A stretch of DNA of 64,000 nt, taken from assembly GCF_902652985.1 (NCBI RefSeq), contig NC_047028.1:17422001-17486000 (forward strand), given 5' to 3'. Below are positions 55,101-64,000 of this stretch, one piece after another. Position 1 is the first letter of the stretch. Every line of letters starts with the position of its first letter. Position numbers: made by a program. The stretch comes from Pecten maximus (Eukaryota).

Positions 55101-58100
55101 AAAACCTGACCACATAACAAACTTGACGACACCACAAACCTGACCACATCACAAACCTGACATAACTACAAACCTGACCACATCACAAATCAGAATTTGT
55201 TTTGTTTGTCCCAGTGACAGCTAAGCCTATGTAAAAATGGTGTCCTCAGATGATGGGCCATTCAAGGCTATAGTGCTATCCCACTGACATGTCATTAGTT
55301 TGATATTGTCAGCATTACAACCCCACCTGGTCACAGCTGAACATCAAGGAGAAATCAGCCAGTACTGTGTACTGATACCACAGGTCTTGGTGTACTATGT
55401 TAATAAATGAAGTAATGCCATGAGGCTTAATGGCATAAAAAATAGTTAGAGATAAATATAAAAAATACAGATGTTACAAGTGGATACAACTTCTTTATTT
55501 AAATCTTTTCTCTGACTGAAATAGAGGGCACAATTATGTTTCAAATATCACCAATGTCTGATTTTCACTCCAATGTTTCTGATTTCAGCAACGCCCAAAG
55601 ACAGTTGCTCCTGTTGATTATGAAAACTATGTGACGAAGAACAAATCCATTCTCCACAATGATCCACAGAGAGAAATGCTTACATTCCCCCATGACGATG
55701 TTGTCATTCCAGTAAGTCTTTTTAATATAACTTTACAATATATATTTATGAAAGGATTATATTATAAGGTGAGATAAATACAATCATAAAAGTTTGTTTT
55801 CAAAAGTTTTCAAAACATTCATATTACATGATTTAAGGTAAAGTTTATCAAGTTCAAACTGAGGCTAAGAAAAGGATGATTACTTATTGAAGAAATACTG
55901 TTTTTCTTGCAGCCTCCCACCCCTGCCAAAAGGATGCGAACAGTCCAGAGTTCGGTGCCAGTGTCTGCCTCACAGGAAGCCACCAGCCTGTTGGTCTGTG
56001 AGGCTATTAAGTCCTACACGGACAGCTGTCACATGGTCAAATACAAATACAGCAAGTACTCTGGCTCCTACCAACAGTTACCATGGTAAGTAATGTTACC
56101 TAGCAACAGTTACCGTGGTAAGTAAGGTTACCTATCATCAGTTACCATGGTAAGTAATGTTACCTAGCAACAGTTACCGTGGTAAGTAAGGTTACCTATC
56201 ATCAGTTACCATGGTAAGTAACGCTACCTAGCAACAGTTACCATGGTAAGTAAGGTTACCTACCAACTGTTTCCATGGTAAGTAACGCTACCTAGCAACA
56301 GTTACCATGGTAATTAAGGCTACCTAGCAACAGTTACCATGGTAAGTAATGCTACCTATCAACATTTACCTTGGTTAATGTTACCTAGCAACATTTACCA
56401 TGTTAAGTAAGATTACCTAGTAGCAGTTATAATGGTAAGTAAAGTTAAATAGCAACAGTTTCCATGGTAAGTAAGGTTACCTATCAACAGTTACCATGGT
56501 AAGTAAGGTTACCTATCAACAGTTTCCATGGTAAGTCAGGTCACCTAGCAAACTTACCATCATGGTAATTAAGAAGACCTAACAACAATAACCATGGTAA
56601 GTTAGGTTAACATAGCAACAGTTACTATGGTAATCTAGGTCACATAGCAACAGTTACTATGGTAATCTAGGTCACATAGCAACAGTTACTATGGTAATCT
56701 AGGTCACATAGCAACAGTTTCCATGAAAAGTAAGACCATCTATCAACGGTTATCATGGATAGCAATGTCATATAGCAATAGTTATCATGGTAGGTCACCT
56801 AAAAAGCTACATAGTAACAGTTGACATTATAAAGCAATCCAGCTGTGCTTTCCTTGGTAAGGTATGGTAACTAAATAACAATAAGTTATCAAGTGAAGCA
56901 CCTAGCAACAGCAATTGAGGTTTGTTAGGCCGTCTAACATTTAACCATAATAACTTGGGCCACCTAGTTACAGTAAGTAGTAAGTGGTCTCCCTTAACTT
57001 AATATTTACCACAGTAAATGGTACTCTGTCAATATCAAGTATATAACCTAGTATCAGATACATAACGTTTCATCTGCTTCAGACTAAAAAATTGAAACAA
57101 CAAAATAGTTGTCAAATATATATGATAACAGAGATGTATTTAACAAATACATACAAGCCGTTATAACAATGGTGTATTGTATTATTTTTCAGTGTGAAGA
57201 AACCAGATCCATTACCTAAACATGTGTTTGAAATAGATGCGGAGGAAGAAGAAAAGGAAGATGTATGTGTTTTGTCATTTTATAATCTCTATGATGAAAT
57301 ATTCTTAAATCAATGTTTGGACAGATACATGGACAATTTACTGCTGAGGATATTTTTGTCAGAGGGTGAATTCTTTTTGGGCAAAATATCAGTGTGAAGC
57401 TGTATGTATTTATCCATGATAGATAAAGCAGAAAATATTGGGATCCAGTTAATTGTGTTGGAACTTGTTCAAATTTTTATGATTTTAAGGTTATTTCATA
57501 GTTTCAGGATTTATTAAAGTAATTTCATAGTCTCATGTTGTTTTGAATTATAAAACATTGCCTTAGATTTCCTGATGTTATTTCTTCAAAATCTATTTCC
57601 ATAGAAAATGAACCACAGATGTGTTTAATGTTTTATTGATATGATAAATGCCTTGTATTTGATCGTATTCCAGGACATGTCTAATCGAAGCTCCATGGCA
57701 ACTACGATTGCCAAGGAAGGATGGTTATTCAAGGGGCCAGATGGAGGAAAAGAGAACATCATCAGCTTCACAAGGGTAATTATTTAGAGTTATCTGCCCT
57801 TGACTGTTAAGTGCCAGACAGACCAAACATCCTTTCTACTTGTAAGGATTTTTATTTTGTATTAATTGTACTATTATTTCTTTTGATATGAATAAAATAC
57901 TTGTATTTTGAAGTACATTGCTGTATTTTGATTGAAAATACTTTAGAATGAAAATTGACTGTTATTGCAAATGAAATGATGGTTTTTTGATTTTCAGCAA
58001 TTTAAACGACGTTTCTTTGCCCTCAAACAAGAATCAGATTTTTCCTATGTGATGAACATCTACAAAGATGACCGCAAGCTGGACACTAAGGGAGCCATAT

Positions 58101-61100: not shown

Positions 61101-64000
61101 ATCATTAAAACTAGACACAGTTCAGTAAGTGGATATATGAAAGATTTTGGGATCAAAATTCCAAGGTTTGTAGACACCGGATTATTTTTTTAACTTCCAA
61201 GATGAATAATATGAAAATAAATCAATAAGTTATAATGATAAATCACAATGTTTCACTCACAATCGATTGAAGACTACTTTCCTTTAGGTTAAAAACTTAT
61301 GTTACTATAGTAATCTGTAGTCCCAGGTTATATGTCCTAGTGAAGCCACATAGAAACAGGGTCCTTAGTTGCATTAGTGTTACCGTAGTAAACATTAGTG
61401 TATGTTTTAGTCTGTCAATTCTCCCCATTGATCCCTAAGGTTTTTGATGATCTCAGTTACTTAGACAGAAGAAGTTTGACCGTAGGTAATTATAACTTGC
61501 GATTGCAGAGGTGTGTGATGGATGATGAGGATGAAGAAGAAGACGGCGATGAGATCGCTGTTTATCCTCCACAATACCGCGAGCGATTCATGCTGCGGTT
61601 ACTGGATTTCAAACTCAAACTCCAATTTAACCTTGGAGATGAGTTGAAGTGTGGAAACAAATTGGTTAATGTAAGTATTTCTACTAGTACTTAAAAATCA
61701 TATGGTCATGTTTAGGGATGACTTCTTAACCTCAAAGGCATACAAATGTATCATCTTAAGATTTATGTCAGTATTAAAGAACAATAAAAAGTTTCTTAGA
61801 GCAAATAATGATGATGATGCTAAAGTTAGAGACATCAAAAACTAAAACTGACCTGCTGAACCCATCGTAGCACGGGATCTTATTGTATACAAGTTAGCTA
61901 TTTTCCCTTTTATGTCCCTGCTACTGTTGTGAAAGAGATTTAAAGTTTTCTGTCCATCCTGTCGGTCCGTACCTGATGTCTGTTTTGTCTGGTTAGATTT
62001 TGGACTTGACTCCATTTCTTTTAATAATGCTTGTCACATCAATATCAAATTGTTACGCAGGTTTTAATTTGAGAATATAATGGCCCATGGCCATTGTTTA
62101 TATTTATCTGAATTTTGGTTTGTGGCTTGTAAGGACATGCTACATTTCAAGTTTACATGTCACTGTGTTACTGACAGAGCTATGGTCTTGTTGGAGACAC
62201 ATATTAAATATGCTTCTTTTCATTAGTATTTTTCAGAATTATTTTTAAATTTGATATTCTATTATTTTCAAAAATTTGTACATTTCAGCCTGAGCCGTTC
62301 TTTTTGACGTTCTGTCTTTATGATGCTAAAGAGGGAAGGAAGATATCCGAGGATTTCCACATGGACCCTAACGACCCCCAGATCAAAGACATGATTCCCT
62401 CAGATGTTCTCCATGCCTCCGATCGACTACATACAGTGGAGGGCAAGACCTCCTCTCCAGACCTCAGGGGACTGGATGAAAAGTGGATCCTAGCTCAGAA
62501 CAGACAGGTATAGGGCTAAAAGGCTGGGGAAGGGGAGGGTTTTGAACCGCTCTGATAAGTATTACAAGGGTTAAAATGGATACACTGGGAATGGAGTGGA
62601 AAGTTTTGAACCGCTCTGATAAGTATTACAAGGGTTAAAATGGAAACACTGGGAATGGAGGGGAAGTTTGTGGCCATTCTTTGGAGGATTAGATGGAGTC
62701 AACACAGAAATATTAGGCTGAAGGAAGTTTGTAGTAATTATTTGGAATGCAGGTTTTCTTTGTCATAAATTTGATATTATGATGTAATACAGGGTGTGTT
62801 TTCTGTGTCGTTTACCTGATGTTTTATTGTATTACAGGGTGTGTTTTCTGAGACGTTTATCCGATGTTTTATTTCATTACAGGGTGTGTTTTCCGTAATA
62901 TGCTGCCACTCTGAGGTTTACCTGTTTGTAAGGATAGAAAAGGTCTTACAGGGTCCACTCTCCCAGGCCACAGACACGTACCTCAAGGTCGGTGAGGCTG
63001 GGCGTACAGCCGCAAAACAGTATAAACAAATGAAACAGCTGTGCAATAACATTGGTCATTACAGAATGCCATTTGGTTGGGCGGCAAGGTAGGCATTTAA
63101 CTCTACCTGAATATACCTAAACTATAACTATAATAACATTTGAAAAAATATTAAAATTGTAAAATATTTTTAGCATTTAATATTTTGTTTTAGGGTTTAA
63201 ATGCAATCGGAAAGTGAAGGATATAATAGAAATCAGTCTGGAAATGTTAAATTAATTCATGAATTAAAATCGCACTGCAACAATAGATATGGTTTTGCTA
63301 TTATCATGTGATGCTTCATTTTCAGACAACTTGTGTCATCTAATTATGGTCCGTCTGAACTCAAGATCTACAGACATGAGGGGTCGAAACTATCCGAGGA
63401 AGATATCATCAAACATCTACAAGATCTCAGAAAGTAGGAAATACAACCAAAATTCTGCCATAGGAAGCTTCACAATTACTGTTATATAAAATCTTATATA
63501 TCATGTCATCATATCAATTAACGTTACAGACTTATTAGAAAGTTAGCCATAAACTAACAATTATAAATGGCACCTGGTCGACGAATAGGTAGGATTAATA
63601 TAAATATGAAGTAGAGGGGGATAAATCATAGTCTAGTGCAGGGTAGTCAAAGAATAGCGGTTCAAGTTCAATATCTAAGATTAATTTACAAAGAATATTA
63701 TAAGGAAGTGGTTTGAGCCAAGAGGACAGTTAAAAGGGTACAGAGTATTTTAGTAAAAATATGGGTTCAAGTACTAAAGCCATTACTTGTTTAATCATTA
63801 TTTAGTGTGATACTTTCTGTGCCAAATGACATATATGTTAAAATCATGTGTATTTTCATTATTATACAATTATTTTTCTATGTAAATTATCATAAAAACA
63901 TATATCTTACAATTCTTAATGACCCACAGTATGAAATCTCCCTCACTTTTTGTTCCATGTTAAAGTTTTTTTGTTTTTTTTTAAAATATTTTTACTAAAT

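What the first reader, a model, noticed from the sequence alone, without database searches (positions are those of the whole stretch)
55551..62893. Recurrent tandem duplication of exon boundaries across the DOCK gene
Seen: five boundaries among exons 2-13 are themselves duplicated or amplified. They are the exon 2 acceptor (55551-55588), exon 3 donor (32-bp array), exon 7 donor (39-bp array), exon 9 acceptor (56-bp period) and exon 12 acceptor (45-bp x3). Further repeats start shortly after the exon 8 and exon 11 donors and the candidate exon at 45031, and the DGK start-codon array fits the same theme. In each case expansion runs into the intron and the reading frame is preserved. Inference: a mutational bias seeds minisatellites at splice junctions (e.g. 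co-transcriptional R-loops or pausing), and selection then disables or tolerates the decoy sites. This could be an under-described route to intron growth and new alternative splice sites in this lineage.
Basis: partly seen in the sequence, partly recalled or inferred. Interest (0 to 1): 0.72.

Follow-up and report, generated by a model that had tools for sequence, protein, structure and literature searches.

The report
Minisatellites copying exon-intron boundaries
Several introns of a DOCK-family gene hold short tandem repeats whose units copy a splice junction, a structure already described as "mirages" in amphioxus and as boundary-spanning VNTRs in human genes, so this is a clear but ordinary example.

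Summary
The repeats are real, but only part of the claim holds. I read 12 exons (2-13) of a DOCK-C/D gene whose reading frames all connect.

- **Clearly duplicated junctions:** the exon 3 donor (32 bp x 22.7) and the exon 12 acceptor (45 bp, at least 3 intronic copies).
- **Exon 7 donor:** the 39-bp array starts at intron base +2, and the exon tail matches the unit only across an indel.
- **Exon 9 and exon 2 acceptors:** these duplications stop 3 nt before the exon and include neither the AG nor exon bases.
- **"DGK start-codon array":** not found.

About 21.5% of the window is tandem repeat. Under a null that collapses each array to one unit, 2 arrays span a junction against 1.1-1.8 expected (P 0.13-0.59). 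Closeness to junctions is only nominally enriched (P 0.002-0.09 depending on the null), from 6-8 events in one gene that was picked because it shows this pattern.

The junction arrays are not G-skewed, which argues against the R-loop idea. The structure is already in print: amphioxus "mirages" and the human F7 intron 7 VNTR, among others.

Most likely these are chance-seeded tandem duplications, tolerated because the outermost splice site is used. I could not test orthologues or transcripts.

The parts
55589..55711 (+). DOCK exon 2 (phase 0 to 0)
   Evidence: Pfam DOCK_C-D_N, E=4.6e-11, profile positions 2-37 of 113; splice sites.
55551..55585 (+). Small imperfect duplication of the pyrimidine tract before exon 2; stops 3 nt before the exon
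   Evidence: 14 of 16 nt with a 2-nt gap; top 0.57% of 3000 random positions; not reported by TRF.
55913..56085 (+). DOCK exon 3 (ends with 2 nt of a codon)
   Evidence: Pfam DOCK_C-D_N, E=1.4e-11, aligned up to its last residue (profile 42-93 of 113). The exon end is therefore part of the conserved domain and is not derived from the repeat.
56067..56792 (+). 32-bp minisatellite whose first unit spans the exon 3 donor (19 exon nt + 13 intron nt). Degenerate copies continue to about 56990.
   Evidence: TRF 22.7 copies, 81% matches. Ten exact copies of the true donor 9-mer ATGGTAAGT plus 4 near-copies at 32-nt spacing. Degenerate tail. Read-through meets TAA after one codon.
57193..57262 (+). 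DOCK exon 4
   Evidence: Open frame, AG/GT sites and phase continuity; no family match on its own.
57674..57775 (+). DOCK exon 5
   Evidence: Open frame, sites and phase; no credible family match on its own.
57998..58129 (+). DOCK exon 6, first half of the PH domain, followed by a GC-AG intron
   Evidence: Pfam PH, E=0.037. Only the GC donor at 58130 keeps the frame with exon 7.
58341..58506 (+). DOCK exon 7, second half of the PH domain
   Evidence: Pfam PH, 30.3 bits (cut-off 25.1), E=6.3e-7.
58508..58841 (+). 39-bp minisatellite starting at +2 of intron 7, with a 78-bp higher-order period. Degenerate copies continue to about 59139.
   Evidence: TRF 8.6 copies. Identity 93% at offset 78 against 84% at offset 39. 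The exon tail aligns to the unit across an indel. Degenerate copies. Read-through meets TAG at the third codon.
59383..59450 (+). DOCK exon 8
   Evidence: Open frame, sites and phase; no family match on its own.
59451..60550 (+). G-rich, C-poor repeat domain filling the 5' part of intron 8 (14-bp x 2, 42-bp x 9, 21-bp x 3), interrupted by a MITE-like insertion
   Evidence: TRF. G 40-66% and C 0-8% per 50 nt. The 21-bp array matches the 42-bp unit (score 47 against a threshold of 23).
59981..60363 (.). MITE-like element with 28-nt terminal inverted repeats, inserted into the G-rich array
   Evidence: Inverted repeat, 82% complementary.
60829..60924 (+). 40-nt segment duplicated at a 56-nt period, covering the pyrimidine tract before exon 9; stops 3 nt before the exon
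   Evidence: 39 of 40 identity; extension into the AG and exon not significant, P=0.096.
60928..61011 (+). DOCK exon 9
   Evidence: Open frame, sites and phase; no family match on its own.
61509..61670 (+). DOCK exon 10
   Evidence: Open frame, sites and phase; no family match on its own.
62289..62507 (+). DOCK exon 11
   Evidence: Open frame, sites and phase; no family match on its own.
62539..62669 (+). 64-bp x 2.1 repeat starting 32 nt after the exon 11 donor
   Evidence: TRF, 95% matches.
62753..62893 (+). 45-bp repeat spanning the exon 12 acceptor: three intronic copies of (first 11 exon nt + 34 intron nt ending in CAG), followed by the true exon start
   Evidence: TRF 62783-62893; extra in-register copy. 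The copy nearest the exon is open in frame for 15 codons, and the next copy upstream holds an in-frame TGA.
62883..63088 (+). DOCK exon 12 (DHR-1 region)
   Evidence: PDB DOCK6 chain 9vm2_A, E=1.6e-6. The alignment begins at the third repeat copy, which is the true exon start.
63326..63433 (+). DOCK exon 13
   Evidence: Open frame, sites and phase; no family match on its own.

Best explanation
These are boundary-spanning intronic minisatellites of the "mirage" type.

Origin (inferred): about a fifth of this sequence is minisatellite, so short segments of 19-64 bp are often duplicated in tandem and then amplified by slippage or unequal exchange. The ancestral introns here were only about 200-350 bp. 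A 30-60 bp seed therefore straddles or abuts a splice junction in roughly a third of cases.

Survival (inferred): such a duplication leaves the mRNA unchanged if the spliceosome keeps using the outermost site, meaning the first donor or the last acceptor. All other copies are then removed with the intron. Only arrays that grow into the intron can survive, which explains the one-sided growth.

Effect of a mis-used decoy (shown): a stop codon follows the true donor almost at once in both donor arrays, so any transcript spliced at a decoy donor would be truncated. That it would also be degraded is inferred.

Decay (shown): copies far from the exon have lost similarity, and copies near it are homogenised into higher-order units.

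Not shown: which sites are actually used, because there are no transcripts. That part rests on experiments in the human F7 gene and on RT-PCR in amphioxus.
For: - Anatomy: the first unit of the 32-bp array holds 19 exon nt plus 13 intron nt. The 45-bp unit holds the acceptor plus 11 exon nt.
- The exon ends are ancestral, not repeat-derived. Exon 3 aligns to Pfam DOCK_C-D_N up to its last residue. Homology to DOCK6 starts at the third copy of the exon 12 repeat.
- High junction-independent background: 21.5% of the window is tandem repeat, and 29 of 36 merged arrays lie outside the verified introns.
- Chance expectation: 2 arrays span a junction, against 1.09-1.44 expected, 0.66-1.25 and 1.83, with P 0.13-0.59.
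- Degenerate copies show that introns 3 and 7 were about 200-280 bp before expansion.
- Stops right after the true donors: TAA after 1 codon for exon 3, TAG at codon 3 for exon 7.
- Decay gradient and higher-order repeats.
- Precedent, human: the first monomer of the F7 intron 7 37-bp VNTR spans the boundary. Its 4-8 identical pseudo-donors are functional but silent, and the most upstream site is chosen by 5'-3' scanning (PMC1557585: abstract, Introduction and Discussion read).
- Precedent, amphioxus: "mirages" at both 5' and 3' boundaries do not disturb normal splicing by RT-PCR (PMC3087553, section 16 read; PMC3902484, one passage read).
Against: - Arrays lie closer to intron ends than uniform seeding predicts. 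Within 35 nt of a junction: 5 of 7, 6 of 8 or 6 of 6, against 1.8-3.2 expected (P 0.001-0.031). Threshold-free P is 0.002-0.075.
- Array density in these introns is about 2.3 times that of the rest of the window (7 per 4.7 kb against 29 per 44.2 kb, P=0.054).
The thresholds were chosen after seeing the data, and this gene was selected for showing the pattern.
- No transcript, population or orthologue data could be consulted.
- The F7 scanning rule was shown in mammalian cells, not in this organism.
Confidence: 0.72

Rival explanations
1. One reading: a mutational bias tied to transcription or splicing (R-loops, pausing, bound spliceosome parts) seeds tandem duplication preferentially at or next to splice junctions. 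Selection then disables or tolerates the decoys.
For: - Nominal clustering of arrays near junctions: within 3 nt, 4 of 8 against 1.3-1.5 expected (P 0.02-0.05); within 35 nt, 6 of 8 against 2.3-2.8 (P 0.003-0.023). Threshold-free P is 0.002-0.075.
- Higher array density in these introns than elsewhere (P=0.054).
- A G-rich, C-poor domain begins directly at the exon 8 donor. All six G-rich arrays in the window have G on the DOCK sense strand.
- A 12-nt perfect palindrome sits on the exon 3 donor and recurs in the units. The array RNA folds far better than shuffles (z=-5.3, 0 of 100 shuffles).
Against: - Strict junction overlap is at chance level (P 0.13-0.59).
- The three junction arrays have GC skew of -0.04, +0.16 and +0.35. 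The two donor arrays have no G-runs on the sense strand. None of the strongly G-skewed arrays spans a junction.
- Most arrays in the window, including the largest, lie where no exon could be found.
- Donor-like motifs are not enriched in array units (6 of 21 against 4.3 expected).
- A palindrome at one of 24 junctions is expected by chance with P=0.25.
- With ancestral introns of 205-352 bp, the threshold-free P is 0.075.
- The sample is 6-8 events in one gene chosen for the pattern.
Confidence: 0.18
2. The arrays are kept by selection because they do something: tune donor choice or splicing rate, supply G-run splicing enhancers, or provide alternative isoforms.
For: - The decoy acceptor at 62837|62838 would add 15 codons in frame with no stop.
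- Fourteen strong decoy donors are retained with little decay in the exon-proximal half of the array.
- G-runs directly downstream of the exon 8 donor.
- The introduction of PMC1557585 lists human genes (6-16, CBS) in which the first one or two pseudo-donors are used constitutively.
Against: - Use of any decoy donor gives an immediate stop.
- The 15-codon insert has no counterpart in the DOCK6 alignment.
- High unit identity is the usual result of array turnover and does not need selection.
- No expression data were available.
Confidence: 0.07
3. The arrays are assembly artefacts: copy number or placement was invented by the assembler.
For: Highly similar tandem units (up to 97%) are hard to assemble, so copy numbers may be wrong (inference only; no call tests this).
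Against: - The units carry graded divergence, higher-order structure, degenerate tails and a transposon insertion inside one array. An artefact would not produce these.
- The exon frames remain intact throughout.
Confidence: 0.03

Closest known systems
Amphioxus "mirages": minisatellite-like tandem duplications of exon-intron boundaries (Adh3, globins BflGb6 and BflGb9, PGBD5, troponin C)
   Same: - The tandem units contain an exon end plus its splice site, and both 5' and 3' boundaries are affected.
- Unit sizes are similar (Adh3 10-72 bp; here 19-56 bp).
- Several can occur in one gene.
- Units near the array edge escape homogenisation.
- They have been proposed as a route to new introns and cryptic sites.

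Sources: PMC3087553 (abstract passage and all of section 16 read); PMC3902484 (one passage read). The original Adh3 paper (Canestro et al. 2002) is not held, so I know it only through these citations.
   Different: - The organism of this window is unknown, so I cannot say whether this is the same lineage.
- The host is a DOCK gene, which is not among the reported cases.
- Normal splicing and length polymorphism were shown there but cannot be tested here.
- The globin units are longer (150-160 bp).
Human F7 intron 7 37-bp VNTR. The same paper's introduction also lists the 6-16 gene, CBS intron 13, LAMIN B2 and PDGF minisatellites.
   Same: - The first monomer spans the exon-intron boundary, so the authentic donor is followed by identical pseudo-donors. 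F7 has 4-8; here there are 10 exact and 4 near-exact copies.
- Only the most upstream site is normally used.

Source: PMC1557585 (abstract, Introduction and Discussion read).
   Different: - F7 carries 4 exon nt in the unit; here the unit carries 19.
- Those are single arrays per gene, while here several junctions of one gene are affected.
- Acceptor-side arrays are not part of the F7 model.
- The scanning rule was shown in mammalian cells only.
Intron gain or intron sliding by tandem duplication of a segment holding an AG|GT site (Rogers model; vertebrate ATP2A1, a potato RdRp gene, Drosophila cases)
   Same: A short intragenic tandem duplication creates extra splice sites while leaving the protein unchanged.

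Sources: PMC3265369 (passages read); PMC4974935 and PMC2891723 (search listing only).
   Different: In those cases an exonic duplication creates a new intron. Here existing introns grow, and no new intron position can be shown.

Membership tests
Boundary-spanning minisatellite ("mirage" / F7-type VNTR) | The tandem repeat unit holds both exon bases and the adjoining splice site and intron bases | tested here: met
   Met for the exon 3 donor (19 + 13 nt) and the exon 12 acceptor (34 + 11 nt). Met only across an indel for the exon 7 donor. Not met for the exon 9 and exon 2 acceptors, where the copies stop 3 nt before the exon.
Boundary-spanning minisatellite ("mirage" / F7-type VNTR) | The extra copies lie inside the intron and the authentic coding exon is intact | tested here: met
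   The frames of all 12 exons connect. Exon 3 aligns to the Pfam domain up to its last residue. DOCK6 homology starts at the last repeat copy.
Boundary-spanning minisatellite ("mirage" / F7-type VNTR) | The reiterated splice sites are normally silent and the mRNA is normal | not testable with these tools
   No transcript data. The sequence shows only that use of a decoy donor gives an immediate stop.
Boundary-spanning minisatellite ("mirage" / F7-type VNTR) | Length polymorphism or instability of the array | not testable with these tools
   Only one haplotype is available. Higher-order units and homogenised proximal copies are indirect signs of turnover.
DOCK-C/D (zizimin-type) guanine nucleotide exchange factor | N-terminal DOCK_C-D_N domain | tested here: met
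   Exons 2 and 3, searched separately: E=4.6e-11 and 1.4e-11, both above the curated cut-off.
DOCK-C/D (zizimin-type) guanine nucleotide exchange factor | PH domain after the N-terminal domain (that this marks the D subfamily is recalled, not tested) | tested here: met
   Exon 7: 30.3 bits against a cut-off of 25.1. Exon 6 is weak, E=0.037.
DOCK-C/D (zizimin-type) guanine nucleotide exchange factor | DHR-1 and DHR-2 domains | tested here: inconclusive
   Exon 12 aligns to residues 329-404 of DOCK6 (9vm2_A, E=1.6e-6). Exons 9-11 and 13 give no match on their own. The region where DHR-2 should lie is beyond the end of the window.

The most novel reading that the evidence does not exclude
In this lineage, minisatellites may nucleate preferentially within a few tens of nucleotides of splice junctions. 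Possible causes are that a conserved exon end plus the splice consensus creates palindromes and microhomologies, or that junction-proximal DNA is damaged during co-transcriptional splicing. If so, boundary arrays would be a systematic, measurable driver of intron growth and of new splice sites, not a by-product of a high repeat background.
Probability: 0.18. Interest if true: 0.6.

Novelty: new member of a known kind. Interest (0 to 1): 0.3.

Why it matters
As it stands, this is a clean multi-junction example of a known structure in a new host gene. It gives one strong natural test case for donor choice: one true donor followed by 14 near-identical ones. It gives another for acceptor choice: three reiterated acceptors, one of them in frame.

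It would matter more if a genome-wide test showed that junctions really attract tandem duplication. That would give a concrete mechanism for intron lengthening and for the birth of alternative sites. The held papers I found discuss such a mechanism only from single genes.

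Tried and rejected
- **Human origin of the window:** I take it as not human. It has no N, 36% G+C and 21.5% minisatellite, and the DOCK introns are only 201-1477 bp. I therefore kept working on it.
- **Joined exons:** all protein searches were done exon by exon or on contiguous genomic frames.
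- **Related sequences elsewhere:** The open collections hold only bacteria, archaea, phages, plasmids and E. coli. Orthologous introns and other genes of this genome therefore stayed unchecked.
- **More junctions in the window:** long-frame listing, motif scans and a codon-usage ranking found only one further candidate exon on the minus strand (14494-14643). No diacylglycerol-kinase catalytic motif was found (the motifs were recalled). Nine candidate frames outside the DOCK exons gave no credible Pfam match.
- **Exon 3 against solved structures:** no match.
- **Extension of the exon 9 duplication into the exon:** not significant.
- **RNA structure masking the decoy acceptors of exon 12:** no signal (z=-0.66).
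- **Palindrome at the exon 3 donor as a special seed:** not unusual (P=0.25).
- **Rfam:** only one tRNA gene.
- **Literature:** seven searches listed no genome-wide enrichment test of boundary-spanning minisatellites in the held library. The original Adh3 paper is not held. Supplementary files were not consulted. The globin paper's additional files 4-7 (unit alignments and trees) could bear on the comparison.
- **Organism:** could not be identified with the open tools.

Full report
**Setting.** The window has no N and is 36% G+C. By merged TRF intervals, 21.5% of it is tandem repeat. I take it for a non-human, repeat-rich animal genome, because the DOCK introns measure only 201-1477 bp. The organism could not be named with the open tools.

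**Gene model.**
- All have AG acceptors. Eleven have GT donors and one has a GC donor (58130).
- The reading frames connect from exon to exon.
- I searched the model exon by exon and made no joined sequence.
- Exons 2 and 3 match Pfam DOCK_C-D_N (E=4.6e-11 and 1.4e-11). Exons 6 and 7 match PH (E=0.037 and 6.3e-7).
- The frame holding exon 12 aligns to human DOCK6 in the PDB (9vm2_A, E=1.6e-6).
- Exons 4, 5, 8, 9, 10, 11 and 13 give no credible match on their own. They rest on open frames, consensus sites and phase continuity only.

**The five claimed boundaries.**
- Exon 3 donor: a 32-bp array (56067-56792, 22.7 copies) starts 19 nt inside exon 3. Downstream of the true donor there are 10 exact copies of its 9-mer ATGGTAAGT, plus 4 near-copies, at 32-nt spacing.
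- Exon 12 acceptor: a 45-bp repeat covers the acceptor and the first 11 exon nt. TRF gives 2.5 copies. An older in-register copy at 62753-62792 (29/40; 0 of 1000 shuffles) makes three intronic copies.
- Exon 7 donor: the 39-bp array (58508-58841) begins at intron base +2. The exon tail aligns to the unit only across a 9-11 nt indel.
- Exon 9 acceptor: a 40-nt segment is duplicated at 39/40 with a 56-nt period, but it stops 3 nt before the exon. Extension into the AG and the exon is not significant (P=0.096).
- Exon 2 acceptor: the duplication is 14 of 16 nt with a gap and also stops 3 nt before the exon. It is unusual but small (top 0.57% of 3000 random positions). TRF reports neither this nor the exon 9 duplication.

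**Other claims.**
- Repeats do start 28 and 32 nt after the exon 8 and exon 11 donors.
- The candidate exon ending at 45031 has an ATG and a GT but no family support.
- I found no repeat at the start codon of the only candidate neighbouring gene, a minus-strand first exon at 14494-14643. I also found no evidence that it is a diacylglycerol kinase.

**Is the junction overlap more than chance?**
- Coverage: only 2 of 24 junction-centred 24-mers have a nearby copy at 19/24 identity or better. The figure is 27% for intron-interior positions and 0% for exon-interior positions.
- Seed null, gene-wide: each array is collapsed to one unit and the unit is placed at random. It may lie in an intron or straddle one junction. 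With the 7 TRF arrays, 2 span a junction against 1.09 expected (P=0.30). Adding the 56-bp duplication, which TRF does not report, gives 2 of 8 against 1.33 (P=0.40).
- Own-intron null: placing each unit only within its own intron gives P 0.13-0.36 for spanning.
- Ancestral-intron null: degenerate copies show that the arrays of introns 3 and 7 extend to about 56990 and 59139. The 21-bp and 42-bp arrays of intron 8 are one array split by a MITE-like insertion. With repeat-derived sequence removed, the ancestral introns were about 205-352 bp. Spanning is then 2 of 6 against 1.83 expected (P=0.59).
- Verdict on overlap: it is at chance level.
- Proximity: this is nominally enriched. Within 3 nt of a junction: 3 of 7, 4 of 8 or 4 of 6 (P 0.004-0.096). 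Within 35 nt: 5 of 7, 6 of 8 or 6 of 6 (P 0.001-0.031). The threshold-free statistic gives P 0.002-0.075.
- Caveats on proximity: the thresholds were chosen after seeing the data. The exon 2 duplication was left out because intron 1 is unverified. The sample is one gene flagged for this very pattern.
- Density: arrays are about 2.3 times denser in these introns than in the rest of the window (P=0.054).

**Tests of the proposed mechanism.**
- GC skew is -0.04 for the exon 3 array, +0.16 for exon 7 and +0.35 for exon 12. The two donor arrays have no G-runs.
- The strongly G-skewed arrays (skew +0.76 to +1.0) all have G on the plus strand, and none spans a junction.
- Of the 36 merged arrays in the window, 29 lie outside the verified introns.
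- I tested 21 of the 36 arrays for donor-like motifs, leaving out the 15 shortest. Six carry a 7-of-9 donor-like motif against 4.3 expected.
- A 12-nt perfect palindrome lies on the exon 3 donor (56078-56089) and recurs in the units. The array RNA folds much better than shuffles (z=-5.3). One such palindrome among 24 junctions is expected with P=0.25.

**Consequences readable from the sequence.**
- Reading through the exon 3 donor meets TAA after one codon. Reading through the exon 7 donor meets TAG at the third codon. Any decoy donor would therefore give a truncated message.
- The exon 12 decoy acceptor nearest the exon would add 15 codons in frame with no stop. The next one upstream brings an in-frame TGA.
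- Pyrimidine content is 0.41, 0.41 and 0.59 for the decoy acceptors and 0.65 for the true one.
- Which sites are used cannot be told without transcripts.

**Comparison with what is known.** The structure is in print.
- In amphioxus, minisatellite-like tandem duplications of exon-intron boundaries are called "mirages". They are reported for Adh3, two globin genes, PGBD5 and troponin C, at both 5' and 3' boundaries. Splicing was normal by RT-PCR, and they have been proposed as a route to new introns (PMC3087553, section 16; PMC3902484, one passage).
- In the human F7 gene, the first 37-bp monomer of the intron 7 VNTR spans the boundary. The identical pseudo-donors are functional but silent, because the most upstream site is selected.
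- The same paper's introduction lists similar arrays in the 6-16, CBS, LAMIN B2 and PDGF genes (PMC1557585).
- Seven searches listed no genome-wide enrichment test in the held library.

**Verdict.** The part of the interpretation about tolerated or disabled decoys fits the data. The junction-specific mutational bias is not shown, and the R-loop version is disfavoured for the junction arrays. The phenomenon is a new member of a known kind.

Noticed in passing
window 39352-39804: A 40-bp x 8.9 array (97% identity) directly continues an ATG-initiated 41-codon open frame. Every unit carries a donor-like TTG|GTAGGT, with an in-frame stop 6 codons past that site. It has the same architecture as the exon 3 array and could be a further boundary array, but the exon is unverified (no Pfam match).
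   Followed up: partly
window 33295-34313, 45134-46186, 50234-51389, 59451-60550: A class of very G-rich, C-poor minisatellites (G 50-61%, GC skew +0.76 to +1.0, many G-runs). All have G on the plus strand, which is the sense strand of the DOCK gene. One array of opposite skew lies at 54350-55189. The strand asymmetry is unexplained.
   Followed up: partly
window 59981-60363: A MITE-like element with 28-nt terminal inverted repeats (82% complementary) is inserted into the G-rich array of intron 8, splitting it into the 42-bp and 21-bp arrays.
   Followed up: partly
window 58130: Intron 6 appears to be a GC-AG intron (AAG|GCAAGT). Only this donor keeps the frame between exons 6 and 7.
   Followed up: partly
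window 62838-62882: The decoy acceptor one repeat upstream of exon 12 would add 45 nt in frame with no stop. That would be a possible 15-residue insertion isoform in the DHR-1 region. It is absent from the DOCK6 alignment.
   Followed up: partly
window 56078-56089 and the units of 56067-56792: The exon 3 donor sits in a 12-nt perfect palindrome that recurs in 7 units. The array RNA is predicted to fold by pairing donors of different units (z=-5.3).
   Followed up: partly
window 14494-14643 (minus strand): A candidate first coding exon of a divergently oriented gene: ATG at 14643 and a GTAAGT donor after 14494. It has the highest codon-usage score outside the DOCK exons. It has no Pfam match, and no further exons of that gene were found in 1-14400.
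   Followed up: partly
window 21171-21244 (plus strand): One tRNA gene (Rfam RF00005, 73.7 bits) lies in the region between the two genes.
   Followed up: no
window 876-3057 and 6759-8695: Two very large 50-bp arrays (44 and 39 copies, 95-97% identity) lie where no exon was found. The first carries an 8-of-9 donor-like motif on the plus strand.
   Followed up: no
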